Origin: Octopus vulgaris
Taxonomy: Eukaryota
NCBI GenBank assembly: GCA_951406725.2
Contig: OX597838.1
Span: forward strand, 25,668,001 to 25,732,000
DNA length: 64,000 nt
Direction of reading: 5' to 3'
The notes under the pieces are model-generated. The model did no database searches, was not told the DNA's origin, and worked only from the letters and a program-made list of their open reading frames with translations. Each line of letters begins with the position of its first letter. The first letter of the stretch is position 1. Shown here one piece after another: positions 32,290 to 56,002 of the stretch. The translations under genes were made by a program, and so were the position numbers.

Positions 32290-32589
32290 GCGTGTAAGTG
32301 TAATTTTTTACTAACTGAGGATACTGCATGGATTACTTAAGCACCTGCAGTTTTCATGCTAAGTCTTTTTAAATGAATCGAAGCTTTATGCTAAGAGATA
32401 ATTTAGGTGCTAGTTTGCTTTTTTTAAATAATCTTTCTTAAATAACTTTATTTAAAATTATATTCTAAAGCAATTTGCATGAACGAATCGATGAAAACTT
32501 TACTTTTTAATCACACACACACGCAAATTGTCAGTTTCTTCTTTTTGCTTTATGTGTGAAATAGTCAAGAAAACTCTGGGGTCACACAC

Positions 32590-32652
<63 letters not shown>

Positions 32653-33705: not shown

Positions 33706-33738
<33 letters not shown>

Positions 33739-33860
33739 CTAGCAGTATCGCCCGGCGTTGCTCAGGTTTGTAAGGGAAATAACTATAAAGCATTTTTAGA
33801 GAGTTATAGAGTGAGGGTACGAGAAAACAGACACACAGAAACACGCACAGACAAACTGCC

Positions 33861-33868
<8 letters not shown>
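33739..33868 (-). mobile_element. Non-autonomous Helitron-like element (3' end)
   Basis: Minus strand ends CCTGAGCAACGCCGGGCGATACTG-CTAG|T (hairpin plus CTAG), inserted in (TA)n. Confidence 0.65.
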
Positions 33869-33896
<28 letters not shown>

Positions 33897-34214
33897 CAAA
33901 GTGAGATAGGGGTTATGAGTGTAACCCACTATGGGATATCATTTATCCAATATACTGCCGGTAAATACTCAATACATCAATACATCTGACTAATATGAGC
34001 ATAATGAGATACTCTTATCTACAGGCTGAAACAGCTGTAAGATCCATTTTATATGTATTGTTCTTATGGTATTATCTTATTGATGTGTACTGTTTTATTC
34101 TGTATTATTCTGTTTGATCTGGATGTTCCTAAATAATTAGTTAATAAATTATATGAATTGGTATTATCTAGTAGTTGATGATTGAAAGAAATCTATTCCT
34201 CCATTTTCTTATTT

Positions 34215-34259
<45 letters not shown>

Positions 34260-34553
34260 TTGTTCCTTCTCAAACCATGCCTGGCTCATAAGTACCGGTT
34301 TCCTTGGACGGGATGCCAGTCCGTCACAGGTGGGCTACAAGATGCAGGAGGAAAGAGTGAGAGAAAGTTGTGGCGAAAGAGTCAGCAGAAAGTTTGCCAT
34401 TACTTTCTGTGGGAGCCGCACATCGCCTAGTCTGAGATTTGATCCCTCGACTGCAAGTCTGCTGCTCTGACCACTAGTCCATGTGCCTCCACACACACAT
34501 AATGCATGAGACTTTCAGCCCTTGAGTAACTCTGTAACTTTTGCCATTTATTA

Positions 34554-34587
<34 letters not shown>

Positions 34588-35655
34588 ATATATATATAGT
34601 GTGTGTGTGTACTCGTTTTGAGTTCTGTTTTGCTGCTTGCATCACCAAACCAGTGTGTGTACACACACACACATATACCTATATATGTGTAAATATGTAC
34701 ACATATGTATACACACGCTCACACACTATGTATACCTCTCTCCCTACACTCACGCGGCCCAGTTCTCCGCCCTCTCGTCTGTTAATCAGTGTTCCAAACA
34801 AACGGGTTTAAGACTGACTGCCTGCACGAACTTCTGTATGCAGAACGTTCTGGACGCACGAATGTCAGATAGTTTATAGAATAGCTGCCAAACGTAGAGG
34901 TAAAACTTAGAATAAAGAGGTCTCAAAGTAAACGTAAGCGCATACTCAAGTTGTAGAAAATGGGGAAGAAGACAGAACTTTTCTGTTATCAAGCTTCGAT
35001 ATGTAGAAAAGGAGTGTGTAGGAATTTGAGCTAGCAGTGTAATCAACGCATGCTAACAAGAGATATTATGGGGTTACAGGCAAACTCAGAGAGATGGTAG
35101 ACTTTGCAGCTTCGCAGCAAGATGCATAGGAACAGTTGGCGGTTAGATGACGTGCTATATACTTCCGCCTTAACTACACGCGTGTGACTACCCCCATCGA
35201 TTTTGTTTCCTCATAATTTTCAGTAAAATTGGTATTTTTTAATGAAATTTTTTTACAAATATCTCTGAGATGGTATAGATCGGAATTCGATGGGAAAAAG
35301 GTTTTCGGATGGGCTGGGTGTGGAGTTTCAGATAATTCAAACGAATCGACTTTGTTTCCTCATAGCTTTAAGAAAAATGGGTATTTTTAAGAATTAATTT
35401 ATTTTACAAATGGTGTGCATAATGATTATATGTGGTTTTAATATGGAAAAAGAAAATGGTGGCCGTGCACACATACAAACTAACACATCACATAAATAGC
35501 TACAAAATGAAACTTGAAACAGAAAAAATTATGTATACTGTGTTAGTATGTAATGTGTGCACGTCAACCAATTTTCTCTTCCTTTCTCTTTTTAACAATA
35601 AATTTACATGTGGTCGTAATGTACTCAATCTGAAAGATATTTGCAGAAAGTTTCA

Positions 35656-37560
35656 TTAACCCCATGGCAACGGTTTAAAAAATTTTTTATCAAGCGAAAA
35701 ACTAGGTTGCATTCACAATAATCATCTCGGTTGAGATCAGCAATTAGCACGCGACAATGGTTCGACGTATATTTACATTGTCCACTTTAACCAGTTTACG
35801 GCGGTGATTCATTCGGTTTCTTGTGCGCGGCAATGGTAATCGCGCCGATTGAGGTCAGCACTCAATGCGAGATAACGTTCGGCGCATTTTTACGTCAATC
35901 GCTTGAGTGCAAGTGCTGTTTATTTACCTTAACTATATTCCTGTGCAGGACACTCATGCATATTATTCCTCGACAATACAAGTCAGATCAACATCTATTT
36001 ACACACTCAGTGGCATATCACATTGTGAACAATCGTATCTAGTTTCCTTACGTTTCCCTTTTGCTTTCCATACTGTGCATCTCTATGAAGCATTTGTCTT
36101 CTTGGCGGTGTGGGAAAACAGCTGTAGAAAATGTCCACGCCCCTTCACCACGCGTTCTGTACTTCGGCAGGTCTGATGCTTCTAGCATTTTACGGAACAA
36201 TAGATTCTTGAATGTCAATCCATCCCCAAACCGTCAAGCATCTGTCAAATCAAATGTGAATTCACGACAGACATTGTCAACTACTGTATATACAAGAAAA
36301 TTTTTTTGTACCATTTCACAAATTTTCTCACCGATCTGTGTGTCGTCGCCAGCTGATCTGAGCGATCGACCCCGCCCATCCCTTCATTGTATGAAACAAT
36401 TACACTCGATTTCATTATGGCATTACTGTCCGCATCTTGTTTCCTAGTGTCCTTCATGCTTGCAGAATGCATTGAGGATAACATGCAGACGTTTTTCTTG
36501 TCACACAAGAATACCACTATCGGTGCATCGGTATGCTGTTTTCCCCAATTTAAGTTTTATTTTGTGAAGATCGGGCGGCATGTTTTTCCTGTGCGTCCTC
36601 ACAGTCCTACAGGCATTATTCCTCCTCACCAAAAGCTGCAGGAAGAGGTCTGGATTGGAAAACCAGTTCTCCATATAAATATTGTAGCCTTTGTCAAACA
36701 AGTTTTCATTCAGCGACAACACGACATCAGTTGTAGAAGCTGCAAGATCCAGTGTGTCCCGACCAGTGTAGATTTTATAATTCCACGTGTACCCACAGAC
36801 TCTGCCAGTTGACTGGCATACTTTATAAACCTTGACTCCAAAGCGGGCACATTTGGTTGGGTCATATTGTTTGAATCGGAGCTTTCCCTTGAATTTCTAC
36901 AAATTCTCGTCTGTACAAATGTCCTGTGTGGGGACGTATACTATTCTGAAATGTTCAGCCACTTCGTCAACGATAGGACGTATTTTGTACAACCTGTCAT
37001 CTTGGTTCTCGCCTGAGTTGAAATGTAGATTTCGAAGAAGTGCCAAAAATCGATCACATGGCATTGTTTCCAGAGAGAAAGGTGTCAGCAAGGCTGGATC
37101 CCGATTCCGATATGACGCCAGGGTCGGTTTCTTCACGATACCCATCAGTACCAGCAGGGCAAGCAGAACTTTGATTTTGTCCCCTGTGGTTGGAAACCAA
37201 TCACCGCCATGCCCGAGTCTGGTCTTCAGCATAGTCATGCGTTTTGTCCGCTATGTATTGGAACATTTCATGTCAAAACCTCGTGGACGATTTCCAGTGG
37301 CGAACTTCCATGTTCAAGGTTTGGCTTTATGCCGTCGGACGAAATTGTCTTTCGCTCGCCGCACGACATTCTGTTGTCCAGGGCCATTTACTACTGCTCG
37401 CCCGTACCTTTGATTCACCGGAATATCATCATCGCTATCGGAATCATTTGATTCTGAACTAGGAAAATACTTTCTCTCCGGATCATTGTCCTAACTGAAA
37501 GAAATAACTGGTGAAGTAAATTCAACGAAACACGATGCGACGACCGTAATTTTGACGAAA
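35656..37560 (-). mobile_element. Degenerate piggyBac (PGBD4-like) transposon
   Basis: TTAA|CCC terminus at 35656; frameshifted transposase motifs DRFLALLRNLHF, DRLYKIRPIVD, ICTDE, KGYNIYMENWFSN, YNEGMGGVDRSDQL and a Cys-rich C-terminus. Confidence 0.9.
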
Positions 37561-39390
37561 CAAGACGCGACGATGAAGTTGACTACGGCAGAAATTGAAT
37601 TCACCTCAATAGACGTCATTGATTGGTTGAAATTGACGAAATGCAAGAAATTAAAGAACTAATAGCTTACAAACTACAGAATTTTCTCAAGAAAGCCAAG
37701 AGAAAAAGATGTTTTATAAACACATTCTACCAGTATACGAAGTTTAAAAGTGTTTAGTTACAAAGAAATTATTTAAAAAATCTGCCGGTCAAAGCGAAAA
37801 GATCCTTTTTCGGATATATGATACATTGACACTGATCTTCCTTCCGTTTCCATCTACCAAATCCACTCACAAGACTTTGGTTGACCCGTGGCTCTATTCG
37901 AAGACTCTTGCCCAGGATGTCACGCAGTGGGAGTGAACCTGAAACCATGTAGTTGCGAAGCAAGTTTCTTAACACACAGGTGTTTTTTTTTTTCTTTATT
38001 TTTATGCTTTTAAGTATATTCGCTGTGACCGATGTAAAATCGAATAAATCGAGGTTTATTTATTTATTTTTTCTTTTTACCATTAATGACTGAAGTCGAA
38101 AAACATGTGACTCGAAACGACGTAAGCCGAGGTATGGTTGTATAAGAAAAAGTGAAAACAACATGCACAAGAGAAGAGTGCACCGATGTGGAAAGGGCAT
38201 GAGATGTGTATGGCAATAATCGATGGGTTAAGAGTCAAGTGATCCAGACGAGAGCGACCCGTGCGGATGGGGGTGAACTGGTCGAGGTAAAGAATACGCA
38301 CACCACCCGTTTTCGGTACAACCCTAACCCTAAACACCGGGTTTGCGTATTCTTTACCTTCACCGAAATAAGGAAAGCTGGTCACAGGTGATGAGAAGAT
38401 CCGTTCAAATTGTGCCCACATGTAGGAGCGATGATGATGATGATGGTGGTGGTGATGATGATGATAATAGTGGTGATGATGATGATGATGACATGAACCC
38501 CCGCCCCCCCTCCAGTTATAAATGTTCACACATAACATATGTAGCTGTATACAAACACTCATAAAACTATACTCATGACTGAAATTGAGGTTTTTTTTTT
38601 TTTCACCATTAATGGCGTAGGAGTGCTTACGAACGACACGGTTCCGGGTTCAGTTCCACTGCGTGGCACCTTGGGCAGGTGTCTTCTACTATAGCCTCGG
38701 GCCGACCAAAGCCTTGTGAGTGGATTTGGTAGATGGAAACTGAAAGAAGCCCGTCGTATATATGTATATATATGTGTGTGTGTCTGTGTTTGTCCCCCCA
38801 ACATCGCTTGACAACCTATGCTGGTGTGTTTGGGTCCCCGTAACTTAGAGGTTCGGCAAAAGAGACCGATAGAATAAGTACTAGGCTTACAAAAAATAAG
38901 TCCGGGGGGGGGGAGGTCGATTTGCTCGACCAAAGGCGGTGCTCCAGCATGGCCACAGTCAAATGACTGAAACAAGTAAAAGGGTATTAATGTCTGAAGT
39001 CGAAAAACATGTGACTCGAAACGACGTAAGTTGAGGTATGGTTGTAGAAGAGAGAGTTAAAACAACATGCACGAGAGAAGAGTGCACCGATATGAAAAGC
39101 GCATGAGACGTGTATGTGCGCGCGCACACCACACATATACGTAGTTGCGTACATGGTTGTGCATACAGAGCTTGAATCATATGCAGATATACACGTAACA
39201 GCCAGATCTTTGCATAAACACGTTAGACACAGACACACAAGCGCGCGCGCACGATGTTTCTTTCAGAACTGACCCGGCCTGTGACGACTCCGCCCAGCCG
39301 ACGTCAGCACGAAAAGAAAACCGCAAATGATAACAGCGATAAACATACAAACCCCACCTCACACACACTAACACCATACCCACCCACACG

Positions 39391-39448
<58 letters not shown>

Positions 39449-39495
39449 ATTTTTTTTCCTCTGTCTTCCCTTCTCTGGATCTTTCCTTCTCCTAT

Positions 39496-39530
39496 GTTTC
39501 CGACGAAGAGCTCCGCTCGAAACGTTAAAC
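39496..39530 (+). ncRNA. Minimal hammerhead-like motif with variant core (CCGACGA)
   Basis: GTTT-CCGACGA-A-GAGC-TCC-GCTC-GAAAC-GTT-AAAC; lies in a fragment flanked by (TA)n. Confidence 0.6.
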
Positions 39531-39640
39531 CCTCCTTCTTTCCTGAGCGTCCAATAATACTATATTTGTTCCACGTCCTCGCGTTGTTGTGTTTTTGTGC
39601 TTTCTTGTTTAGATTAACTATATATATATATATATATACA

Positions 39641-40033
39641 GGCGCAGGAGTGGCTGTGTGGTAAGTAGCTTGCTAACCAATCATATGGTTCCGGGTTCAG
39701 TCCCACTACGTGGCATCTTGGGCAAGTGTCTTCTGCTATAGCCCCAGGCCGACCAATGCCTTGTGGGTGGATTTGGTAGACGGAAACTGAAAGAAGCCTG
39801 TCGTATATATGTATATGTATGTGTGTGCGTGTTTGTGTGTCTGTGTTTGTCCCCCTAGCATTGCCTGACAACCGATGCTGGTGTGTTTACGTCCCCGTCA
39901 CTTAGCGGTTCGGCAAAAGAGCCCGATAATATAAGTACAGGGCTTACAAAGAATAAGTCCCGGGGTCGATTTGCTCGACTAAAGGCGGTGCTCCAGCATG
40001 GCCGCAGTCAAATGACTGAAACAAGTAAAGAGT
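39641..40033 (+). mobile_element. SINE family A copy
   Basis: Same head, body and tail as 22842-23283. Confidence 0.85.
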
Positions 40034-40201
40034 ATATATATATGCGTGTATGTTGAATGCTCGAAATGAGGAGTAGACGGACAGCCGACAACTGATGAAA
40101 GGTCCTTTCTCTCTGTTTACTTGTCCTGTTTTCCATTCTTTTCTCGTTCTTTACGTATTTAACTCGTTTGTTTACGTGTGATGTACTGTACACATAGATG
40201 C

Positions 40202-40252
<51 letters not shown>

Positions 40253-40843
40253 ATATTTTATTAATTATCATATGTGTGTGTGTATATCGTTTGTAGAAAA
40301 AGATAAATCCGGAGAAGTACACTCTAAGATGCAGAGTAGTTAATATTATCATGGGGGAGGCCGGTTTATGGGGTTATCCTGGGCTTCCAGTCCATACGCC
40401 GTAAGGCCAAACCCTTTATGGACGGGAAACCCAGGGTGACCCCATAAACTGGCCTCCTCCATTGTAATAAATAAATAAATATATATATATATGTAGACAC
40501 ACGCACATACACAATGTATGCCAAACATCGATGAGAAAACTATAAAACAGGTACTTTTTGGAAATGCAGTGGTACCAGTGATTCACCTGTTGGGAACTGG
40601 TAACTAACGACGCTATAGTTCACCTACTGCATTCGAAAATAAATTAAAAATCTGTCCATCTTTACACATATATAGGATCTTTTAGGAAAAATTTGACAAA
40701 TCAGGCTTCGAAAGTGAAAGGATCCCATATATATATATATTGACAGCCATGTGTGTATGTGCATACATACAATTAACATGAAGAAACTTTGTTCGAAATT
40801 GGATCTTTTCTTCATTAGAAAGTAGGAAAAATATAACCGAGTG

Positions 40844-40884
<41 letters not shown>

Positions 40885-41304
40885 GCACACACACACAGAG
40901 CTATCCTAACATACACGCAAAACTACACCTGAACACATACACACACATGTTCCAAGTCCAACAAGCAATCCTGACATTCACGCAAACGTATACTTATAAA
41001 CATATGCATATATACATACATATGTATGTATGAATATGTATGTATGAATATGTATGTATGTATGTATGTATGTATGCACGCACGCACACACACGTAGTCC
41101 ATCCCATATATACATGTATAATTATTTGCATGTCCATTATTCAATTTTATTTCAAAATTTCTTGCCAATAGAGAAAGAGCCGGTTTCTAACCTAGATCCA
41201 AGGCCCATTCATTGGAAATTCAACATCAACAGGGAATGTATGTATGTATGTATGTATGTATGTATGTATGTATGTATGTATGTATGTATGTATGTATGTA
41301 TGTA

Positions 41305-41339
<35 letters not shown>

Positions 41340-42215
41340 ATGTATGTATGTATGTATGATGTGTGTGTGTGTGTGTGTGTGTGTATGTCATAGTTCAGTT
41401 TTATGTCAAGATTTCTTGCCATTAGAGAAAAAGCCGGTTTCTAACCTAGATTCAAGGCTCATTCATTGGAATTTCGACATCAACAACAGGGTATTTTTAT
41501 GTGCGTGTGTGTGTGTGTATGTATGTATGTATGTATGTATGTATGTATGTATGTATGTATGTATGTATGTATGTGTGCAGATTTGTATGTTTTGCTTTGT
41601 GTGTTCTCCTGTGCAGATTTGTGTGTATGTATGTATGTACGTTTGTATGTATAACATTTCAGTAATTGATTCTAAAATTGTGTCTCTTGAAACAAAGATA
41701 TGCACAAAATTTCATGCGCGTATGACACGCATAAGCAAGTATAGTACTAAATTTGACATACACAACTAAATGACTGAAAGTTTAACCACACACACACACA
41801 CACACACAAATTCATTGAAACATTGGCTAATTACAGGAATTGTCTCTTCACTTCGTTCGCGGTCGCTTGATTTCTGCGAATTAACAACTTATATAAAATC
41901 TCAAAGAAAAAACATCCACCCACACACACACATACGCATGCATTGTACATGCTTCCATACATATATACATCACACACACACTCACACGCGTGTGTTTATG
42001 TATACACACACACACACGTGTGCATTGCTAAATTAACATATACGCCAACCACATGACTGCGAGTTTATTTACATATGCACATTCACACATGTATATATAC
42101 AAACACATTCACCCACATATATACATTCATACCCGTAATTACTCATCCATGCTATAATAAACACACACAGAGGCACACCCGTACACACATACATCCATTC
42201 ACTTAAATCATCCAT

Positions 42216-42249
<34 letters not shown>

Positions 42250-42339
42250 GCTATGCCCTTAATTAGAATCATGTACATATGTATATTATTATTAATTTAA
42301 TTATATATATATATATATGTACACACACACTCACACATA

Positions 42340-42370
<31 letters not shown>

Positions 42371-42452
42371 CACACATAATATATATATATATATATATAT
42401 ACGCTATGCCCTTAATTAGAATCACATACATATGTATATTATTATTAATTTA

Positions 42453-42491
<39 letters not shown>

Positions 42492-42924
42492 CACACATAA
42501 TATATAGATATATATACACACACACACTCACACATAATATATAGATATATATACACACACACACACACGCACTCACACATAATATATAGATATATAAATT
42601 TATACACGCGCGCACATACCTGAATGAAGATTGTGTCAGAGATGCCGGCAAGCAGTTGTGAAAAGAAAGAAGGAAGAAAAACAGACAACTCGCTCCTTTC
42701 AAGACAATCGAAGCAACTCACAGCAGCAGCAGCAGCTTCTGCAGCAGCAGTAGTAAAGGATGCTGTTGTTGTTGTTGTTGTTGTTGTTATTGTTTAATCT
42801 TCGGCCAAAAGCCGATCCAACAGATTGACCATTCAAAATTCTCTTATTTCTTCTTTTAGGCATGTAGTGTTTAATGCCTCCGTCTCAATTGTCTCACCCA
42901 CGTGTTTGAGATACCTAAAGGCGT

Positions 42925-42958
<34 letters not shown>

Positions 42959-43710
42959 AAATAGTGGTTGTGGTGGTGGTGGTGGTGATTGTGGTAGTAG
43001 CAGACGTAGTATTGCTGGTGCAGGTGGTGGTGGTGGTGGTGGTAGTAGTACAATAGTAGTAGTAGTAGAAATAGTGGGTTGTGGTGGTGGTGATTGTGGT
43101 AGTTGCAGACGTAGTATTGCTGGTGGAGGTGGTGGTGGTGGTAGTAGTACAATAGTAGTAGTAGTAGAAATAGTGGTTGTGGTGGTGGTTGTGGTGATTG
43201 TGGTAGTAGCAGACGTAGTATTGCTGGTGGAGGTGGTGGTGGTGGTAGTAGTACAATAGTAGTAGTAGTAGAAATAGTGGTGGTGGTGGTGGTGATTGTG
43301 GTAGTAGCAGACGTAGTATTGCTGGTGGAGGTGGTGGTGGTGGTAGTAGTACAATAGTAGTAGTAGTAGAAATAGTGGTGGTGGTGGTGGTGGTGGTGAT
43401 TGTGGTAGTAGCAGACGTAGTATTGCTAGTGGAGGTGGTGGTGGTGGTGGTAGTAGTACAACCGCCAACACCACCAGCCGTGTTAGCGGCAGCAATATCA
43501 GTATTGGTGGTGGTGACGTTGGTGGTAGTGGCGGTAGTAGTAGAATTAGTAGTACCATCATCAACAGCAGTAACAACTGTGGTAGTAGTGGTGGTGGTGG
43601 TGGTGGTAGTAGTAGAATTAGTAGTACCATCATCAACAGCAGTAACAACTGTGGTAGTAGTGGTGGTGGTAATGGTGGTGGTGGTAGTAGTAGCTGTAGT
43701 GGTGTGATGA
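42925..43710. repeat. Compound (GGT/AGT)n minisatellite, about 5 units of ~100 bp
   Basis: Marker CAGACGTAGTATTGCT recurs near 43001, 43106, 43210, 43307 and 43412. Confidence 0.9.
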
Positions 43711-43868
43711 TAGTATGTAGTTGGGGGGTGGTGCGATGAGAAGGGGAAGACTACAGAGATAACAAAGTGAGTCCTAATTGAGTTGTACTTTTCTTTTTTT
43801 TTTTCTTTGGGGCAACCACCTCCACCATCATCACCAGCCAATGAGTTGGGGGCAGGGATGTTTTAGAG

Positions 43869-44603
43869 CAGAGGTTCTCAAACTTTTTGGGCCACCCCCA
43901 CATCATGGCCACATAATACCCTCAGCACCTCCACCCCTGTTATTATGTATAAGTAAATATTTGATATTATACATATGTAAATATATATATGTACATATAC
44001 ACATATATATATATATACTATGAATCATTTGATATTTAACATGATATATTATTTGTTGGCTGTGTGGTAAGTAGCTTGTTTACCAACCACATGGTTCCGG
44101 GTTCAGTCCCACTGCATGGCACCTTGGGCAAGTGACCTCTACTATAGCCTCAGGCCGACCAAAGCCTTGTAAGTGGATTTGGTAGACGGAAACTGAAAGA
44201 AGCCCGTTGTATATATGTATATATATATATGTGCGTGTATGTTTGTGTGTGTGTGTTTGTCCCCCTAGCATTGCTTGACAACCGATGCTGGTGTGTTTAT
44301 GTCCCCGTCACTTAGCGGTTTGGCAAAAGAGGCCGATAGAATAAGTACTGGGCTTACAAAGAATAAGCCCCGGGGTCGAGTTGCTCAATTAAAGGCAGTG
44401 TTCCAGCATGGCCGCAGTCAAAATGACTGAAACAAGTAAAAGAGTAAAAGAGAAAAAAAATAATATAATAATATAAATTCATAGCGTCCCTCCCCATCCA
44501 CTGTCTTCCTCTCAATGCCTCCTTTTTCTTTACACCCCCCCACCTCCCCTTTAGGCACCAGCGCCCACCTGGACCATCTTAGTGCCCACTTTGAGAACCT
44601 ATG
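43869..44603. mobile_element. hAT-like MITE with a nested SINE (44057-44452)
   Basis: TIRs CAGAGGTTCTCAAA / TTTGAGAACCTATG; weak TSD. Confidence 0.55.
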
Positions 44604-44816
44604 TACTACAGAGTAATCCGACCTGCTAGAAATAGCAACTATCAAATCTTCAAACTGCACCCCAACACTGTTATTGATGTAAGAACCAATACACACACAC
44701 ACACATTTATCCGAAAAAGAAACACACTCTAAAACATTAGAACAGTAATGTAATTTTTAAGGAAGTTAAAAGTTGTGGTCAGTCGTGGGATGACCATTGG
44801 TTTTGCTGCAGCCATT

Positions 44817-44878
44817 TTAGTCTGATGAGTTGCCTAAACTGCTAAGCGCTTTATAGGTGCGAAACCAATGGTCGCTTT
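44817..44878 (+). ncRNA. Type I hammerhead ribozyme motif
   Basis: TAGT-CTGATGA-GTTGCCTA...TAGGTGC-GAAAC-CAATG-GTC-GCTT: intact core, ACCAATGGT stem III, GUC triplet, short stem I. Confidence 0.75.
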
Positions 44879-45188
44879 GTGACTGGCCGTAACTTTTCCC
44901 TTCCTAAAATTATATATATACATTCTTTTATTCTTTCACTTGTTTCAGTCATTTGACTGTGGCTGTACTGGAGCACTGCCTTAAAGGGGTTTTTTAGTTG
45001 AATAAATCGACCCCAGGACTTATCCATTGTAGCCCTAGTACTTATTCTGTTGGTCTCTTGGTGGGGACGTAAATACACCAACATCAGTTGTCAAGCAATG
45101 TTGGGGGGACAAATGTATACACACACACATACATATACATACATATATATATATACATACACACATATATATATATATACACACACAC

Positions 45189-45235
<47 letters not shown>

Positions 45236-46504
45236 TATGTATGATGGGCTTCTTTCAGTTTCCATCTACCAAATCCACTCACAAGGCTTTGGTCAGCCTG
45301 AGGCTATAGTAGAAGACACTTGCCCAAGGTGCCATGCAGAGGGACTGAATCCGGAACCATTTGCTTGGCAAGCAGGCTACTAACCACACAGCCACTCCTA
45401 CACCTACATGTTAGTAATTTTCTTGTATTATTATTTCTTTTTCTTTTTTTTTTTTTTTGATAGCTTCTTTTCACAACTTTTGAAACATTTTGGTTCCCCC
45501 TTTATATGGAAATAACTTGAAAAAAAATTTTTCTCTAGACCATTGCTAGATCACTGTGGCCCAATACCTTAGACATTCTGGTATTGTTCCTCAGTGGTAG
45601 GTTGAAACACCATTTCTGGTGATTCAGCATTGTTCTGAGACAAGCTCTGCACTTTTAACACTCAAGTTCCTTTGAGACAAAACATTTTTGCTAGTGCTGT
45701 CCCATACCTGTATACAAGGAAGTGAGAGAGTTTTCAATTCAATATGAAGATTATGAAAGAGAGAGAGAAGATGGGAGAGGAGGAGAGAGCGGCATGGAGG
45801 GAGAAAGGAAAAAGAGAAGAAAGGGTGAGTGAACGAGAGAGAAGGTGACATGTTTTGAGTTTTAACAGTTTAGTTGGAATTGTTTTACTAGATTAAATAG
45901 AAACTAGAGAATGTAAATTGACAATGGCTCATTCCAAACATAAAATGAGACAAATATATTTGCCAAGCTCCACGGGAAGAACTATTAAAATCGTTTAAAC
46001 TACTACTACTACTACTACTACTAATAATAATAATAATAATAATCCTTTCTACTATAGATACAAGGCCTGGAATTTTTAGGGAGAGGGATAGTCGATTACA
46101 TCGACCACCCCCACAGTGTGTAACTGGTACGTATTTCATTGACCCCAAAAGGATGAAAGACAAAGTCGACTTTGGTGGAACTTGAACCCAGGATGTAAAG
46201 ACAGATGAAATGCTGCTGAGCATTTTGCCCAGTATGCTAACAATTCTGCTAGTTCACTGCCTTAAATAATGATAATAATAATAATAATAATAATAATCCT
46301 TTCTACTATAGGCACAAGGCCTGAAACCTGGGGGAGGGGGATAGTTGATTATATCGACCCTATTGTTTCACTGGTATTTAATTTATCAACCCTGGAAAGA
46401 TGAAAGGCAAAGTCGACCATGGCAGAATTTGAACTGCCACTATGCATTTTGCCTAGTGTGCTAACAATTCTGCTAGCTCACCACCTTAGATGATGATAAT
46501 AATA

Positions 46505-47280
46505 ATGGTGAGGGTTGGCAATGAGTTTAGTGAAGAATTCAGGGTACAAGTAGAGGTTCATCAAGGATCAGTCGCCACCCCATTCTTGTTCATCATAGTC
46601 CTCCAGGTGATAACAGTGGAATTCAAGACAGGCTGCCCCTGGGAGCTCCTCTATGCTGACGACCTTGCTCATTTAGCTGAATCACTACCAGAACTTGAGA
46701 AGTTTCAGGTGTGGAAGCAAGGTATAGAATCAAAGGGCCTTAGAGTTAACCTAGCAAATACCAAAGTAGGAAGGAGGACAAATTACAAATCCCTTCAAGT
46801 AGAAGGCCCTGCTTGATGTGTAGAAAAGGTGTATGTAGAAACTCAATAAGATCTAACCGGTGTAAGCTATGGACATAAGAGATGCAGCAATATCAGAGGA
46901 AGGTTAACAGGGAAGATAGTTTTTGTGCATAGGTACAATAAACACCAAAAATTTACAGAAAATAGATTCCATCACATACCAGGGGCGAAAACTAGAAGTA
47001 GTCAATAGCTTCTATTATCTAGGTGACCAAGTTAGAAGCAGGGTGGATTGCTCTGAGAGCATAGCTGCTAGAATAAGAATAGGCTGGGCAAAGTTCAGAG
47101 AGCTCCTATCTCTGCTGGTAACAAAGGGCTTCTTGCTCAGAGTGAAAGGCAGGCTGTATGGTGCCTGTGTGCGAACAGCCATGCTACAAGGCAGTGAAAC
47201 ATGGGCTGTGACAGCTGAGGACATGCATATGCTTGTTAGAAATGAAGCCAGTATGCTTCGCCGATTGCGTAATGTCAGGT
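46505..47280 (+). mobile_element. RTE-clade LINE reverse-transcriptase fragment
   Basis: VHQGSVATPFLFIIV, CPWELLYADDL, FYYLGD, RIRIGWAKFREL, MLQGSETW motifs; frameshifted. Confidence 0.9.
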
Positions 47281-47587
47281 GGTACTGGCAACAACTGTGC
47301 TCAAATGAATGATAATGATGATAATAATTATAATAATAATCAGAGCATTAGGTTTGCTTACAAAATCATCATCATCATCGTTTAACATCGGTTTTCCGTG
47401 CTAGCACGGGTTATGAAAAGAAAAACCAATAGCAATTGGAGCATGTGGTATGATTAAGAAAAAATATGGATAAAAGAAAATATGGATAAAGGATAATAAT
47501 TAGAGCATTAGATATGATTTAAAACAATATAAAAAGAAACATGAAAGCCATTTTCAGGCTCACATCACTAAACATTGTCCTCAAAAT

Positions 47588-48780
47588 ACTGTATTTGCCA
47601 GCACATTGGACGCACCCTCACATAAGATACGCCCCTATTTTACAAGGATATTTTGCAGAAAAAAACAATTTTAGTAGGTTTCATTATAAATCTATTGAAA
47701 GATATTTTAAAGTGGTTTTGTAGGGAAAATTGTATGATTCTGTTCACGAAATACAATATTGTGACAGTATACTGGAATAAAGTATGAGGCCTTATGTAGC
47801 TTTTCACTCACCTTTAACCCTTTAGTGTTCAGATTATTCTAACAAACATAATGCTTATTGATTCCCATTGATTTGAATTAATCATGCATTATCTCATATC
47901 TTCAAGATCTTGATGGTGTAATTACTTAATATAGAATAATATTGTAGGGTAGGTGTGAGAGCCTGGATCTGGTCAGTTTGAACATAAAACAGATTAACTA
48001 TTTTGGCCGGATATGGCCGGTTTAAATACTAAAGGGTTAAAGGAAACCAAGTTAAGTTTGCCTTATTAAAAAAGAAATATACATTGGTATCAATGAATTC
48101 TGATACAAACCCATCAACAAAGTACCATAAATGTGATGAATTCCTATAGATACTTAGTTCTCACTGTTGCCATCCTTATTACCGGTACTCTCTTCATCAC
48201 TGGAATTCTCTGCAATAGGATCTGAGTCATCAGTATCTTCTTCAAACAAGAAATCATCCTCAGTACCGTCAAGAGCATAACTAATGCCACATTTTAAAAA
48301 TGATTTCACGGCTACCTCTTCGTTTACAGCATTCCATGAATTTTTACCCACCCACACCCCTGTGCAACAGTAGGTCTCTTCCATCTTCCTGTTGGTGTCA
48401 CTTCAAAATCTGAAGACTGCATCCACTTGCTCCACTCCTCCTGTGTGAATCTTTTAAATGGTTTATTGATTGAAAATATCTAAAGGCTGCAACTAGCTGG
48501 TTAGACCTCCTGGAATTACAGCTAATTGGGTCTTCAGTTCTCCAAGTTTCCTCTTCACAAGCTCAGTTCTATGAGCCCGAAACTAATAAGGCAGGTTTCT
48601 TCAATAGCCCAGTAGGATGCTTGGACTACACTTTATCAAACCACAATTTCATTCCTTCTGCATCCAGCCAACCTTTTGGGTGGACATGAACATAAATGCC
48701 TTGTGTATCCTTCCTTGAGGCAGTGTCTTTCTTTTAAAATTAAAAATGGTGGTAGTTTTGTGAAATCAGCGCACTGACAA
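47588..48780 (-). mobile_element. Degenerate pogo/Tigger-family transposon (DDE_1), interrupted by a MITE
   Basis: Minus-strand pieces KGWLDAEGMKLWF, LAVIPGGLTS*LQPLD, NKPFK, KSFLKCGISYALDGTEDD; pogo-like TIR TACTGTATTTGCC at 47588. Confidence 0.8.
47814..48040. mobile_element. piggyBac-type MITE (TTAA-CCCTTT...AAAGGG-TTAA)
   Basis: TTAA TSD and CCCTTTAG TIRs; related copies at 55572-55799, 60190-60413, 22652-22830 and 31101-31310. Confidence 0.78.
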
Positions 48781-49069
48781 TTCTGTCAGCTCACCACATT
48801 AATAATAATGATGATAATAATAATAATGGTTTCAGATTTTGGCACAAGGGCAGCCATTTTGGGGGAGGGGATAATTCTATTACATCAACCCCAGTGTTTC
48901 ACTGGCACTTAATTTATCAACCCTGAAAGGATGAAAGGCAAAGTTGACCTCACTGGAATTTGAACTGAGAATGTAGCAACAGGCGAAATATTGCTAACCT
49001 TTTTGCCCAGCATGCTAACGATTCTGCCAGCTTGCCACCTTAATAATAACAATTATATTAATGATAATA

Positions 49070-49486
49070 AGACAAAGTGTTAGAGCACCAAAGGCCGGAT
49101 ATAGTAACCTTTAGGAGGGACAATCAAGAGTGCCAGGAGATCAATATATCATCATGAAAGAAAGAAAAAGTTGATAAATATGGAGACCCAAGATTTGAGT
49201 CACTAAGATGTGGCAGCTACAAGAGTCAGATATAAAGGTTATCCCAATTGTTGTTGGAGCATTGGGTTCAGTATCACCCAATCTACAAAAACATCTGAAA
49301 ACCTTAGAGATACTTTACAATCTAGATGTATTGCAAATGTTGGCATTACTTGGAACTGCACGCATATTGCATAAAGTACTGTCTGTCTGAGGTCCTTGTT
49401 GTGACTTGACGAACAGTACAAACCCCCTGTAGACACAACATCTTCAATCAACAACCTCACGATATTGTATACTTTGCAACATCTAT
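49070..49486 (+). mobile_element. R4/Dong-clade non-LTR retrotransposon 3' end (restriction-like endonuclease region)
   Basis: HQRPDIV; ORF 49208..49390 IKVIPIVVGALGSV...LQMLALLGTARILHKVL; (TAA)n on both sides. Confidence 0.75.
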
Positions 49487-50974
49487 AATAATAATAATGA
49501 TAATAATAATCCACTTACTGACAGTTTATCTAATCTAAAGTATTTCACTGGTGAAAAATAAAAGGTCATGTTAAATGAAAGTACATGTGTGTTGATATTA
49601 GATAATTATTCAATTGAAGATAGTGTACAAAATAACAAAGATTTGGGTGCTGGGTCATACGGATGGTATGGGGGAAACAAAAATGTAAATGAATTAGCAA
49701 AAACTAAAAAAAAAACCAGAAAGAAAAACATTTGAGTGTAAAAAGATATAACTGATATAGTAAAATAGAGCATTGTCTTGAGGCTTATGAAGGACCCTTG
49801 GAGCTGGTTACACAGTTTCCTTGGCATATAAATGACCGAGAACACAACCTTCTCCTTGAAAAGGATGCCAGACCATCACAAGATTACTCATTTACAGAAG
49901 AGTGGACTGGGGCAATAGGAAATGGAGTGTTTTGCTGAAGAACACAGCGTGGGAATCGAAACCATGACATTGCAATTTTATGTGCAACACCCAAGCCACT
50001 AAGCCACGCACCTTCACACAACTGATGTAGATAATATTCCTAATTTATCTGAAGCAAAATCATTTATGGAAAGAAGAGTAGTAAAAACAATATTCATTAA
50101 AATCAACAGATGAACTATCAAACTTTAATCCTCAATCAGATTTATCATAAGAAAACTTATCAGTTATTGAATGATACAAATAAGTAATGACTTTCTTGGC
50201 CCCCATACTGGTTGATATTCCTCTATAAATTATAAACTATAACAAACAGATCTGATTGTGTTGACCTTTATGTTCATGTAGCAGGCCTGGATGTGTGGTT
50301 AAGGAGCTGATTTTGCAACCATATAGTTTTGGGTTCAGACCCACTCTTTAGCACCTTGAGCAAGTGTTTTTTACTATCGTCTTGGGTCAATTCATGCCTG
50401 TGAGTGAACTTGGTAGAGGGAAGCTGTGTGGAATCCAATTGTGTGTGTGTGTGTGTATTTGTGTTTGTCCCCCATTGCTGCTTGACAACCAATGTCGATT
50501 TGTTTATGTCCATATAACTTTGTAATTTGGCAAAAGAAACTGATAGAGTAAATACCAGACTTGAAAAAAAAAAAAAAGAAAAGAACAAGTATTGGAATTG
50601 ACTTGTTCAACTAGACCCTTCAAAGCAATGCTCCTTCATGGCCACATTCCAATAACTAAAAAAAATATAAAGAGGTAAAGAACCCCTTCGGTCATGAATA
50701 ACCTTGGGATTGCACCTAAGGATTTTCCCCTCCAAGGCACAAGTCCAGCCAAGGTTATTTATGGAAGACCAGCAGTAACCCATGCATACCAGCCTCCTCT
50801 TCACTCCACCAATGTTATCCAAGGGAAAGGCAAAGGCCAATACAGCTTGGCACTAGTGACGCCGCAACTCATTTCTACAGCTGAGTGAACTGGAACAACG
50901 TGAAATAAAGTGTCTTGCTCAAGAACACAACACACAGCCTGGTCCGGGAATGAAACTCATTACCTCTACTCTAT

Positions 50975-51230
50975 GTTTGCTGTCAATAAATACTATAGGG
51001 CCCAATATATTGATTTGTCTGGGGTCTTCATAGGTGTAGGGGCCCAATTCTGATCTTTGTATTCTGTGCCTTCCTGTAATAAATAAACATTATAGCACCC
51101 AATGTACTGATTTGCCTGGGAGCCTTATGGGTATAGGGGGCCCAATTCCAATCTATATATGCTGTAGCTGGCTGTCAATAAATAAAAACTATAGGGCCCA
51201 GTGCAGTGATTTACTCCTGGGGCCTATAAT
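50975..51230 (+). repeat. Degenerate ~95-bp tandem repeat, about 3 units
   Basis: Recurring TGTCAATAAATA...TATAGGGCCCA..TGATTT...GGGG blocks. Confidence 0.6.
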
Positions 51231-52317
51231 GTTGCTGCATGTCATTATTTTAGTTTGTTTTGATTAATATGGACAATTAAATTAAATTTAATTTAATAAA
51301 ATAAACAGATTTTATTATTACTTTCCTTCTTGTTTTTCTTTTCCACAGTGGAATGAGGCCAAGCTGGGGCACTGCCTTAAGGGGTTTTAGTCAAACAGAG
51401 CTAACAAGGTGCCACTCAGTGGGACTGAACCTGAAACCATGTGGTTGCAAAACAAGCTTCTTAACCACACATCCACGCCTACCCTTAACCTTATGTCTGT
51501 GCACATATCCAGGTCTGTGAGCGGGTGTCTGTGCATTTGTCTGTCTGTCTGTCTGTCTGTTTGAGTGTTATAACTAGATTTCGTTTTCGTTTACAATTGT
51601 ATAGTGTGAGAAATTTGATACTAAATATTTGGGTTGAAATAGTTGGGTGGGAAATGGGTATGTGTACCATTGTAGTCAAATGTGAAAAAAAAAAAACATA
51701 ATAAGAGGGCAAAATATATTCTTGAATTTTAGATACAAAAAAATGTGATGGTGGAGGGTAGTGGTGGCAGTGATGGTGGTGATGGTAGTTGAGATGGTGG
51801 TGGTGGTGGTGGTGGTGGTATTTGGGATGGTTTTGATGGCAACGGTTGTAGTCACTGTATATATATTTGGGAATGCATTGTACTACAGTAAATGAGTAAA
51901 TACTGCTATGTTTCCAACCAGCAGCTGTTTTTTTCTTTTTAATTGCAGTTTGTTGTTGGTCGACAATTTCATTTTTAATGAGTTTCTCAAACTTATCTCA
52001 TGTGTGTAAATTTATGTACAAATATCTCTGTGTGACTGCATGACCATGTTTTATTCATATATCTTGTATACTATACATATGTAAATTCATTATTTGAGCT
52101 TTCAGTAATGGTATTTTCCAAAGCCTTTTTAAGTTTAACATTATTTATTCTGTACATATGTTGGCACAAGTTAGAAGAGGTTGTATTTGACACCTTTACA
52201 TTATGTCTGTCAAATAATGAAATTTACATTCAATCCTCTCATGACTGTCAACCAACAACAGTTAACCACAGAAAATGGTAGCCCTGAAGCATCCAGAACA
52301 AATGATATATCAAACAA

Positions 52318-52785
52318 TAACCAAAGTCCTAATAAGTAGGAAGGTAGACAAGTCACAAACACCTTCAGGTAGATGGCCCTGCTCGATCTGTAGAAAAGGC
52401 GTAGGTAGAAACTCTATAAGATGCACCAAGTGTAAGCTATGGACACATAAGAGGTGCAGCAACATCAAGGGAAGGCTAACTGGGAAGATAGTTTTTGTAT
52501 GTGGCAGATGCTCAGGAGCAATAAACACTGAAAATGCACAGAGACCAACTTCCGCCACATTCCAGGGAAAAAAACTAGAAATAGTTGATAGCTTCCTTTA
52601 CCTAGGTGACCAAGTTTGTAGCGGGGGTGGGTGTGTTGAAAGTGTAACTACTAGAGTAAGAATAGCCTGGGCAAAGTTCAGAGAGCTCTTACCTCTGCTA
52701 GGGACAAAAGGCCTCTCGCTCAGAGTAAAAGGCAGACTGTACGACGCATGTGTACGAACAGCTATGCTACATGGCAGTGAAACCT
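52318..52785 (+). mobile_element. RTE-clade LINE fragment containing a PHD-like C4HC3 finger
   Basis: ORF 52275..52793; homologous to 46770-47205. Confidence 0.88.
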
Positions 52786-53049
52786 TGAATTGAAAAGAGC
52801 GCAGTCATCATGCTTCTCAGAAACCTGGATCAGCCAAGATTATGCAATGTCACATGTACAGCTGTGACTTAACTACATCATCATCATCATTTAGCGTCCG
52901 TTTTCCATGCTAGCATGTGTTGGACGGTTTAACTGGGTCCTGTGAAGCCGGAAGGCTTCATCAGGCCCAGTCAGATTTGGCAGTGTTTCTACGGCTGGAT
53001 GCCCTTCCTAACGCCAACCACTCCGTGAGTGTAGTGGGTGCTTTTTACA

Positions 53050-53596
53050 GCCTCACATTATCGAAGCAAAAATCCTCACTGGAAGTGGTAAAGAAGACAT
53101 TGAATTTATACCTAGAATAACCACTAATACTAACAAATGTCTCCTTTCGTTTCAAACGATGGCAATTCTCAGTGAGAGTCAGTCATGCATTGACCATTAA
53201 CAAGTCCCAAGGTCAAACACTGCAGGTCGTTGGTCTCTGTCCAGAAGAGTGCTGTTTCTCACATGGTCGACTGTATGTAGGTTGTTCCAGAGTAAGAAAC
53301 CCACAGAAACCCTTTCATATATGCTCCAAAGAAAAAAGTTAAAAACATTGTATATACTGAACTTCTGTAAATGTTTTATAATGTTCGTACAGTAATAATT
53401 TCTCTAATATTATCTATATTGCTTTCTGCATTTAGATATTCTAAATAAATTTGTAAAATTATGTTATACAATATTTAAATACTTTTTAACAACTTTTATA
53501 GTAAGGAAAATGGGCATTACAATAGATGCCAATATGTGCCTTATGAATACATTTCAACACCATACAGACCGGGCTGAAAGCCAGGAGGCCTGCTAG
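53050..53596 (+). mobile_element. Helitron 3' end (PIF1-like helicase C-terminus)
   Basis: FKRWQFSVRVSHALTINKSQGQTLQVVGL...FSHGRLYVGCSRV; terminal hairpin CCGGGCTGAAAGCCAGG followed by CTAG|T. Confidence 0.88.
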
Positions 53597-53803
53597 TATA
53601 TACATATATATATATATATAACTCCAAGAAAGTTAGGGGTTGTGGGTCCAACTCACTAAGGGATAATATCTATCCAATATACTGTTGGTATAATACCCAA
53701 TTATTAATACACAAGTGTTTATTGCATTGCAATTAACTTACCTAGTGTATTAAATGGGTGAAGATAAGAACCAACTATTGTGTCCCTCCATTTTCTTATT
53801 TGC

Positions 53804-53834
<31 letters not shown>

Positions 53835-54225
53835 TCACATATATACATAAAGAGAGTTTCTGAAATTGGATGTTCTCAAAAAGGCTTTGACATCTGATAC
53901 AAAACCACAAAACAAAACCAACTTCACATATAAATACTAAGAAACAGAATTCTCTAAATAGTTGACTAAAATAGAATTGTAAGACAATGCAATGCATTTA
54001 TATTCAATTTTTTTTTTTATCAAGCAACAAATAGTCATAAAATCTACCACAATACCTAAGACGTATGAAACAAGAAAAACAACTAACACTGCAGAAATAT
54101 TGTGCTTACACTAGCAGATAGGCACAGGCTTCACTGTGTGAGAAATAGGTTTGCTTTCCAACCACATGGTACTGGGTTCAATCACACTCCATGGCACTTT
54201 GAGCACACACACACACATATATATA

Positions 54226-54256
<31 letters not shown>

Positions 54257-54261
54257 CAAAT

Positions 54262-54753
54262 CAAAATAGATGAACATCAATGGAATTTGTATCTTTGTGG
54301 TACCAGTGCCGGTGGCACACAAGAAAACCATCCGAACGTGGCCGTAGCCAGTACCGCATCGACTGGCCTCCGTGCTGCGGGCACGTAACAAACACCATCC
54401 GATCGTGGCCGTTCGCCAGCCTCATCTGGCACCTGTGTCGGTGGCACAGAAAAACACCATCCGAGCGTGGCCGTCTGCCAGCCTCGTCTGGCACCTGTGT
54501 CGGTGGCACATAAAAAACACCATCCGAGCGTGGCCGTTCGCCAGCCTCGTCTGGCACCTGTGTCGGTGGCACATAAAATCACCCACTACACTCTCGGAGT
54601 GGTTGGCGTTAGGAAGGGCATCCAGCTGTAGAAACACTGCCAGATCTGACTGGCCTGGTGCAGCCTTCGGGCTCCCCAGACCCCAGTTGAACCGTCCAAC
54701 CCATGCTAGCATGGAAAACGGACGCTAAATGAATGATGATGATGATGATGATG
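54262..54753 (+). mobile_element. Short retroposon family B with internal ~62-nt tandem units and (GAT)n tail (RTE-type 3' end)
   Basis: Ends CCCATGCTAGCATGGAAAACGGACGCTAAATG(ATG)n; copies at 9089-9409, 12519-12860(-), 17340-17660, 20120-20358, 32697-33004 and 52877-53048(-). Confidence 0.8.
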
Positions 54754-54847
54754 TCCAATGAGAAGTAAAGACATATACATATGTATGTACATATATATAT
54801 ATATGTACATATAGGTTTTGTTTTGTGGTTTGTATCAGATGTCAAAG

Positions 54848-55559
54848 CAATCAGAAAACTACTACTTTCAAAAACAAATATTGCAAAGCATTTAGAGTGG
54901 AGTAAAAACTTACAGAATTGGTCCCTAGAGCAGTGGAAGAATATTATTTTCTTGGGCGAGTCATCTTTTACCTTATTCCCGACCACTGGCTAAGTATATG
55001 TGTGGAGACAGCCAAAAAAAGCATTTGACCCAGACTGCCTTTTTCCAACTGTTAAACATGGAGGAGGATCTGTAATGATCTGGAGGGGCTATATCTTGGA
55101 AGTCCACCGGCCCAATGGTTTCCTTTCATGGCAGAATTAATAGTCAAGACTATTTAAACATTTTATCTAATCAAATTTATCCTATGGTTGCGGAACTGAT
55201 TCCAGAGGGAAACGCAATCTTTCAGGACGATAAGGTACCAATTCACACAGCTAAAGTTGTTACTGAATGGCACGAGAAACATTCTAGTGAAGCTGAACAT
55301 CTTATCTGGCTACCACAGTCCCCAGATCTCAATATTACTGAACATTTACGGCATATTTTAGAAAAACAAGTAAGGAGTCAATATCCTCCAGCATCATAAC
55401 TCCAAGAACTGGAGACTGTTTTAGCTGAAGAATGGACAAAAATTCCTTTGGAAACAATTCAAACTTTGTACAAGTCCATACCTCATAAAATCCAAACTAT
55501 AATTACTGCCAAATTTGTTTGAAATTTTAAGGTGTTTCCATTATTTTGTCCAACCCCTG
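54848..55559 (+). mobile_element. Tc1-like transposon 3' part
   Basis: [61 protein letters not shown]; TIR end TTTTGTCCAACCCCTG|TA. Confidence 0.9.
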
Positions 55560-55571
55560 TATATAGTATAT

Positions 55572-55799
55572 TTAACCCTTTAGCATTCAAACCGGCCATA
55601 TCCAGCCAGAATATTTAACCTGTTTTATATTGAAACTGACCAGAGCTTGCCTCTTAACTCAGCCCTACCATGTCATTCTAAAACTAAAAAACCACATCAC
55701 TGAAATATCTAAACTACAAGATAATGCATGATTAATTCAAAACAATATAAATAAACAAACATCACATTTGAGAGAATAATCTGAACACTAAAGGGTTAA
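55572..55799. mobile_element. piggyBac-type MITE
   Basis: TTAACCCTTTAG...CTAAAGGGTTAA. Confidence 0.78.
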
Positions 55800-55955
55800 A
55801 TGTTGAGTGGAGCACTGGCACAGCTTAGGCTACCTGTTGTCATCCGCAGTTGTGGCACACTTCCTTTGGATCTACTTCAGGAACTCCACAGTAGCAGTTA
55901 GGATAATAATATCAATTAATAGCAGGGGATGGATTTCGTATTAGACTTTTATTAG

Positions 55956-56002
55956 GTGCAACAAATGTTTCAACCCATCAGTCTGGGTCTCTTCAGATAC
56001 AT
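55956..56002 (-). ncRNA. Hammerhead motif, slightly degenerate
   Basis: Minus strand reads GTAT-CTGAAGA-GACCC-AGACTGAT-GGGTT-GAAAC-ATTT-GTT-GCAC. Confidence 0.55.

What the first reader, a model, noticed from the sequence alone, without database searches (positions are those of the whole stretch)
44751..44913. Hammerhead paired with an upstream antisense arm whose differences are mostly G:U-compatible on one strand
Seen: 44761-44806 is an inverted copy of 44859-44904, which includes the ribozyme's GAAAC, stem III, GUC site and 3' stem I. By my count 10 of the 13 differences between the arms become G:U or U:G pairs on the + strand (including GGG opposite UUU), and they would be A:C mismatches on the - strand. 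Neutral decay of a DNA inverted repeat should not be so strand-biased. Inference: either RNA-level selection for a rod-like fold that sequesters the catalytic core, as in viroid-like and retrozyme circular RNAs, or an imprint of A-to-I editing fixed by reverse transcription. Either would make this a switchable ribozyme element.
Basis: partly seen in the sequence, partly recalled or inferred. Interest (0 to 1): 0.8.

Follow-up and report, generated by a model that had tools for sequence, protein, structure and literature searches.

The report
Decayed Penelope-end palindrome with passenger hammerhead
This is one of many decayed octopus jumping-gene ends that sit head-to-head with an inverted copy of themselves and carry a hammerhead ribozyme motif; its G:U skew is real but is not shared by its sister copies, so it is likely a one-off mutation cluster rather than a selected ribozyme switch.

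Summary
The count is right: 10 G:U, 1 A·C and 2 U·C among 46 columns. The element is the 3' end (pseudo-LTR with a type I hammerhead motif) of a decayed Penelope-like retroelement family with Hydra-clade motifs in an Octopus genome. The antisense arm is the family's routine inverted 5' copy: 102 of 110 head-to-head pairs cover the GAAAC..GUC half in both arms, and young pairs are near-perfect. The rod is no stronger than its sisters', the core is not conserved above background, and the changes weaken stems I and II. What survives is copy-specific: 7 of 24 duplex A's became G on + versus 0 of 24 T>C; family-wise P is about 0.06–0.3. The element likely lies in an intron of a minus-strand GGT gene, so the host pre-mRNA carries A·C, not G:U, pairs. 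Verdict: ordinary element; switch not supported; a single-copy A-to-I imprint is possible (about 0.15).

The parts
44704..44806 (-). Inverted, 5'-truncated copy of the element's 3' end, running from the GAAAC half of the ribozyme out through the roughly 65-nt tail
   Evidence: nhmmer hit to the family profile, columns 110-212; the tail is on one arm only in 100 of 110 pairs
44807..44909 (+). Sense, 5'-truncated copy (pseudo-LTR 3' end) holding the hammerhead motif and ending at the short end without tail
   Evidence: family profile columns 57 to about 160
44761..44806 (+). 5' arm of the rod; family-polarised changes on +: A>G at 44775, 44785, 44787, 44789; C>T at 44779, 44804; G>A at 44790
44859..44904 (+). 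3' arm of the rod; changes on +: A>G at 44874, 44879, 44889; C>T at 44877; A>C at 44898, 44899
44785..44791 (+). Seven consecutive non-Watson-Crick columns (facing 44874-44880), holding 7 of the 13 differences
   Evidence: a 7-column run occurs in 2 of 74 pairs, this copy and L036
44812..44888 (+). Type I hammerhead motif: stem I 5' strand to 44821, CUGAUGA 44822-28, long bulged stem II 44829-60, GAAA 44861-64, 3-bp stem III with AAU loop 44864-72, predicted cut after C44873, stem I 3' strand from 44874. Stem I has U·G at 2.1/1.1 and U·U at 2.4/1.4; stem II has an A·A mismatch
   Evidence: sequence; departures from the family; stem assignment is inference from the hammerhead consensus
44799..44813 (+). 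Inversion junction inside an 11-nt microhomology between the reverse complement of family columns 107-117 and columns 47-57
   Evidence: column tallies; the same junction zone is seen in L005 and L035; mechanism inferred
44691..44705 (.). (AC)n flank
44911..44920 (.). (TA)n flank at the short end, as in most sister copies
28868..64000 (-). Part of the inferred ~95-kb intron of the gamma-glutamyltranspeptidase (glutathione hydrolase) gene that hosts the element; the upstream exon lies about 60 kb beyond the window end
   Evidence: exons at 5558-28867 on -; residues 7-38 of P0001 match at 100% on - at window-equivalent 124257-124352

Best explanation
The locus is a decayed, 5'-truncated end of a Penelope-like retroelement whose two head-to-head copies were likely identical at insertion and have likely drifted apart neutrally since, with the G:U skew likely a one-off mutation cluster. 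Shown: the family is dispersed; longer copies run upstream into a decayed RT-thumb/GIY-YIG ORF with Hydra-clade motifs; the inverted copy with a tail on one arm is the family norm; sisters have no G:U bias; the core is not conserved above background. Inferred: the inversion arose at integration, by two priming events (one at the short end, one at the tail end) joined at a microhomology. Any transcript across the locus would fold into a rod that buries the ribozyme (26.6 kcal/mol below the hammerhead fold), as a by-product of the inversion and not as a switch. The hammerhead is a passenger and probably inactive. The 10:1 skew is a tail event, helped by one burst of adjacent substitutions (7 of 13 differences in 7 columns) and picked out after the fact.
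For: 496 G:U: 562 A·C in 98 other oriented pairs; A>G 118: T>C 137 and C>T 216: G>A 217. Outliers occur both ways (2:15, 2:12, 7:0) with mild overdispersion, P 0.026. L038/L039 arms are 49 of 49 and 47 of 49 Watson-Crick. 102 of 110 pairs carry GAAAC..GUC in both arms and breakpoints vary widely. Core intact in 33 of 125 copies against 0.20 expected; core columns 0.87 against 0.86 elsewhere. Arm divergence ranks 96 of 109, so this copy is among the more diverged. Rod energy per nt is -0.43 against a sister median of -0.50; the strand difference in sisters is 23 one way and 25 the other. ORF remnants match P0055 at 37% (E 4e-23) and P0073 at 40% (E 8e-16). Inverted 5' copy, one-sided tail, HHR and (TA)n targets are described for PLEs and Hydra.
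Against: The A>G excess in this copy is the most extreme of 436 class-by-strand tests: 7 of 24 duplex A's against 1 of 39 outside (Fisher 0.004) and 0 of 24 T>C. Family-wise P is 0.03-0.06 if 7 are counted and 0.30 if 6 are. It runs against the local asymmetry, which favours T>C on + inside the GGT span (SINEs 112/2553 against 92/2768, P 0.046; inverted repeats 71 G:U: 97 A·C), so transcription asymmetry does not explain it. It is also the most + -favoured of 49 folded pairs. No RT core or DKT motif was read in the family's own copies.
Confidence: 0.75

Rival explanations
1. Same element, but this single copy carries an ADAR imprint. Either a + strand (antisense to GGT) hairpin RNA was A-to-I edited in both arms and written back by reverse transcription or RNA-templated repair, or ADAR recruited to the pre-mRNA hairpin deaminated dA in the + (template) DNA strand of an RNA:DNA hybrid.
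For: 7 of 24 A>G in the duplex, 1 of 39 outside, 0 of 24 T>C; expected 0.96, Poisson P 7e-5. Both arms are hit on one strand. Contexts are CAC, TAT, CAT, GAG, TAG, CAT, TAT, so one of seven has a 5' G (the ADAR dislike of 5' G is recalled). ADARs deaminate the DNA strand of hybrids in vitro (PMC5389660, abstract). The + strand is the template strand of the GGT gene.
Against: 0 of 216 A>G/T>C tests in 108 other pairs reach P<0.01 and there is no A>G/T>C overdispersion, P 0.6. No parent locus shares the 5' flank (40 of 368 candidates scored). Editing of the host pre-mRNA would give T>C on +. Re-mobilisation by the PLE machinery would most simply use the tail-bearing sense strand, which here is - (inference from PMC11167929). 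Four of seven sites are ApT and three create CpG. No A in the A-runs changed to G. The cluster also holds a C>T and a G>A. The flanking SINE pair shows 1/84, 5/36 and 1/31 A>G.
Confidence: 0.17
2. One reading: RNA-level selection keeps a rod that sequesters the core, giving a switchable ribozyme or a viroid-like/retrozyme circle.
For: The rod is stable (z -8.5) and lies 26.6 kcal/mol below the hammerhead fold; the gap is 10 without the 5' arm. The core letters are intact. Only 1 A·C in 46 columns where about 3.4 are expected (rate 0.075).
Against: No family bias. Purifying selection would lower disruptive changes, yet divergence is above the median and the signal is a G:U surplus. A 26-kcal gap is a lock, not a switch. 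Stems I and II are weakened. There is a single core and no tandem direct repeat. The annotated transcript is the other strand.
Confidence: 0.03
3. Selection on the host pre-mRNA (- strand) favoured changes that break the intronic hairpin; A·C mismatches on - read as G:U on +.
For: The strand fits the GGT gene. The changes are a surplus, not a deficit. The - strand fold is 16.5 kcal/mol weaker.
Against: 19 other inverted repeats in the same gene span lean the other way (71:97 on +), and near-perfect longer palindromes persist in the gene at 6996-7331 and 9766-10089. It does not explain why A>G dominates over C>T.
Confidence: 0.04

Closest known systems
Hydra-clade Penelope-like elements (Craig et al. 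2021, PMC8557442; passages read; preprint passages)
   Same: C-terminal GIY-YIG endonuclease with CxxC and CxH around conserved E and N; hammerhead at the 3' end; 5' truncation; inverted 5' copy; tail at one end; (TA)n targets; Mollusca among the hosts.
   Different: The tail here is about 65 nt against the 30-40 bp quoted for PLEs. A long S/N/T-rich insert lies before the endonuclease motif in sister copies. All copies seen are decayed. The supplements were not opened, so this octopus family may already be listed.
PLE hammerheads (Cervera & de la Peña 2014, PMC4209133; passages) and the anole Poseidon PAc (Frangieh et al. 2024, PMC11167929; parts 1-2 of 4)
   Same: Type I motif in the pseudo-LTR, bulged large stem II, short near-palindromic stem III; high within-genome variability. 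PAc's two RT start sites bounding the tail match the short and tail ends seen here.
   Different: Stem III here has 3 bp with a 3-nt loop; no cleavage data exist for this family. PAc's ribozyme needs the protein and is dispensable for insertion in vitro.
Non-LTR retrozymes of metazoans (Cervera & de la Peña 2020, PMC7229834; passages; Li et al. preprint 10.64898/2026.07.22.740005, abstract)
   Same: Type I hammerhead, PLE-related origin, low GC.
   Different: Retrozymes are direct tandem repeats whose two ribozymes release a circle; this is an inverted pair with one core.

Membership tests
Type I hammerhead ribozyme | Core CUGANGA, GAAA and NUH in type I order | tested here: met
   44822-28, 44861-64, 44871-73
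Type I hammerhead ribozyme | Three helices can form | tested here: inconclusive
   The constrained fold forms but lies 10 kcal/mol above the minimum even without the 5' arm; stems I and II carry copy-specific mismatches
Type I hammerhead ribozyme | Match to an Rfam hammerhead model | tested here: not met
   0 gathering hits in the window; no hammerhead among 3 hits at E<=10. PLE variants are known to escape standard descriptors
Type I hammerhead ribozyme | Self-cleavage | not testable with these tools
   needs an in vitro assay
Penelope-like element (EN+) | 3' end joined to an RT/GIY-YIG ORF | tested here: met
   Sister loci L109 and L112 match P0055 and P0073; homologue P0167 hits Pfam GIY-YIG above cut-off; P0055 has a YRDD RT motif. 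The family's own pieces had no Pfam hit
Penelope-like element (EN+) | 5'-truncated copies, inverted 5' copy, tail on one end | tested here: met
   110 head-to-head pairs; tail on one arm in 100 of 110
Penelope-like element (EN+) | Hammerhead in the pseudo-LTR | tested here: met
   33 of 125 copies spanning it keep all core letters
Hydra clade of PLEs | CxxC and CxH flanking conserved E and N in the endonuclease; no CCHH | tested here: met
   CKLC...E...N...CPH/CFH in L109 and L090; definition
Hydra clade of PLEs | CxCX5C linker and DKT motif | tested here: inconclusive
   Both are in homologue P0055; sister L112 keeps CSC-x5-W; DKT was not reached in any own copy
Hydra clade of PLEs | Insertion into (TA)n | tested here: met
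   44911-44920 and most sisters, by inspection and not counted
Hydra clade of PLEs | RT phylogeny within Hydra | not tested
   no RT core was recovered from the family
Non-LTR retrozyme / viroid-like circle | Direct tandem repeats with two ribozymes | tested here: not met
   one core at this locus; among the first 104 loci only L064 had two intact direct cores
Non-LTR retrozyme / viroid-like circle | Circular RNA with a junction at the cut site | not testable with these tools
   only contigs of low depth were available

The most novel reading that the evidence does not exclude
This copy is a germline-fixed footprint of ADAR: a PLE palindrome in an octopus intron was A-to-I edited in both arms and the edits entered the genome, either through reverse transcription of an antisense hairpin RNA or by direct deamination of the template DNA strand in an RNA:DNA hybrid. 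PLE palindromes, with arms identical at birth, would then be a ready-made reporter for editing-driven mutation in cephalopods.
Probability: 0.15. Interest if true: 0.65.

Novelty: new member of a known kind. Interest (0 to 1): 0.2.

Why it matters
As most likely read, it matters little: a decayed copy of a known kind of retroelement, one of at least 110 such palindromes in this family. The family adds an octopus example with Hydra-clade motifs and a longer tail. The case also shows that a G:U strand skew in one palindrome is weak evidence of RNA-level selection. If the minority reading held, it would be rare direct evidence that ADAR activity can write itself into an animal germline, and these palindromes would make that testable genome-wide.

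Tried and rejected
Rfam: nothing at gathering; three weak unrelated hits at E<=10. Local + strand mutation bias as the cause: rejected; 35 window SINEs give A>G 54/1497 against T>C 65/1392, and the GGT span leans the opposite way. A first impression that short-spacer palindromes in the window lean G:U on + (3:0, 2:1, 6:1) vanished with more data: 189:187 in 38 others. A shared per-locus deamination strand: A>G and C>T skews are not correlated across pairs (rho -0.13). A parent locus sharing the 5' flank: none among 40 of 368 scored. Assembly error: rejected. Expression: no RNA holder on record; runs guessed to be RNA gave a few low-depth contigs and no joint at 44873/44874, which is no evidence either way. 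Pfam, the word-index protein search and the Atlas found nothing for the decayed ORF pieces. A transition-tolerant genome-wide census of palindromes and the 200 kb upstream of the window could not be obtained, so the family sample remains best-scoring hits. Paper searches: hammerhead+octopus gave 5 papers, none by title about an octopus element; genomic ADAR imprints gave 0 and 8 papers, none by title on a PLE. Scan look-ups by sequence and place were empty.

Full report
Observation. The + strand folds at -69.7 and the - strand at -53.2 kcal/mol. The hammerhead core is present, though Rfam does not detect it. Contigs of two public runs carry the same letters over the 5' arm (1 other letter in 44562-44798) and the 3' arm (0 in 44836-44925).

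What it is. The 200 bp are a dispersed repeat in a 2.8-Gb genome (63 matches from 40 of 691 candidates); the neighbouring gene matches Octopus glutathione hydrolase at 99%. I gathered 236 loci from best-scoring searches and patterns. They gave 296 distinct arm hits and 110 distinct head-to-head pairs; 102 of 110 carry the GAAAC..GUC half in both arms, 100 of 110 have a tail of about 65 nt on one arm only, and the inversion point varies from copy to copy. Longer copies continue upstream into a decayed ORF. Its C-terminal piece finds 2271 proteins at E<=0.001, aligns to the 723-aa P0055 at 37%, and an upstream piece aligns to P0073 at 40%. P0055 has DKT, YRDD, CxCX5C, CxxC and CxH and P0167 hits Pfam GIY-YIG. 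These are the marks given for Hydra-clade Penelope-like elements, which carry hammerheads and insert into (TA)n (PMC8557442, passages). An inverted 5' copy and a one-sided tail are standard PLE anatomy. In the anole element the tail lies between two RT start sites, and the ribozyme is protein-assisted and dispensable in vitro (PMC11167929, parts 1-2 of 4). The antisense arm therefore needs no special explanation.

Is the G:U bias a family trait? No. Young pairs are near-perfect (L038 49 of 49, L039 47 of 49). I oriented pairs by the tail-less sense copy and dropped 1 pair with under 20 columns, 10 unoriented pairs and the window copy. Sisters are skewed both ways (2:15, 2:12, 7:0) with mild overdispersion (P 0.026). 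The strand that folds better is the ribozyme strand in 23 and the other in 25 of 48 sisters, and this copy's rod is weaker per base than the median. The ribozyme core is intact in 33 of 125 copies against 0.20 expected, and core columns are no more conserved than others. In this copy the changes weaken stem I and stem II, and the hammerhead fold lies 26.6 kcal/mol above the rod, or 10 without the 5' arm. There is one core and no direct tandem, so a retrozyme-type circle (PMC7229834, passages) has no second cut.

What remains odd. Polarised against the family, seven of the ten G:U pairs come from A>G on +, four in the 5' arm and three in the 3' arm: 7 of 24 duplex A's, 1 of 39 outside (Fisher 0.004), 0 of 24 T>C, expected 0.96 (P 7e-5). 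With the larger set one column falls below the 0.7 majority filter and the count is 6 (expected 1.18, P 0.0014), still the most extreme of 436 tests; none of 216 A>G/T>C tests in other pairs reaches 0.01. Seven of the 13 differences sit in seven adjacent columns, a run seen in 2 of 74 pairs, so they may not be independent events.

Strand context. GGT exons run on - from 28867 to 5558, and residues 7-38 of the homologue match at 100% on - about 60 kb past the window. The element thus likely lies in a ~95-kb intron whose pre-mRNA is the A·C strand; this rests on a homologue's isoform, not on reads. Inside the gene span, SINEs show T>C above A>G on + (P 0.046) and 19 inverted repeats give 71 G:U: 97 A·C, against 118:90 in 19 outside (Fisher 0.007). 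That is the direction I recall for transcription-associated asymmetry (PMC2927911, abstract only, confirms strand-specific patterns but not the direction). So neutral decay can be strand-biased by locus, but here the local bias is opposite to this copy's skew, and editing of the host pre-mRNA would also give the opposite change. An editing origin needs either an antisense RNA plus write-back, for which no parent locus was found, or ADAR acting on the template DNA strand of a hybrid, which is shown only in vitro (PMC5389660, abstract). Popitsch et al. discuss G alleles at edited Alu sites as selected rather than mutational (PMC7186786, passages).

Mechanism. Most likely: insertion of a truncated PLE end with an inverted partner joined at an 11-nt microhomology (inferred; the same zone is used by L005 and L035), identical arms at birth, neutral decay, and a chance or clustered A>G surplus in this copy (0.75). 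Single-copy ADAR imprint 0.17; selection to break the pre-mRNA hairpin 0.04; selected switch 0.03.

Limits. The family sample is best-scoring hits, which may under-sample heavily edited copies. No stranded reads were available. No RT core of the family was read and no tree was built. Supplements of PMC8557442 were not opened and may already list this family. An earlier AI note on a similar inverted Penelope remnant in another genome (e1-9868370) agrees on the anatomy and was not checked here.

Verdict. Observation confirmed; interpretation partly supported; new member of a known kind; interest 0.2.

Noticed in passing
window 6996-7331, 9766-10089, 60723-60877: Two more head-to-head palindromes with CUGANGA...GAAAC motifs in both arms and (TA)n flanks, from other and younger-looking families inside GGT introns, plus a single related copy near 60.8 kb. 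They look like further PLE pseudo-LTR ends.
   Followed up: partly
window 44057-44451 and 44924-45394: Two SINE-like repeats in inverted orientation enclose the element, so a read-through transcript could form a nested ~1.3-kb hairpin. No clear A>G excess in them.
   Followed up: partly
window 5558-124352 equivalent versus L243-L256: The G:U/A·C ratio of inverted repeats flips at the GGT upstream exon (71:97 inside, 118:90 beyond; Fisher 0.007), which suggests transcription-linked mutation asymmetry in octopus.
   Followed up: partly
L077:1490-1777 and L152: Sister pairs with the opposite skew, 2:15 and 2:12, made of mixed substitution classes.
   Followed up: no
L109, L112, L114, L116 upstream of the hammerhead: The family's ORF has a long S/N/T-rich low-complexity insert just before the YVGS endonuclease motif; homologue P0058 has a similar insert.
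   Followed up: no
window 36501-37250 (-): ORF remnants that read like a piggyBac-type transposase (family recalled, not tested).
   Followed up: no
window 40344-40469, 7418-7514, 24711-24816: Short palindromes without a hammerhead core, MITE-like by recall.
   Followed up: no
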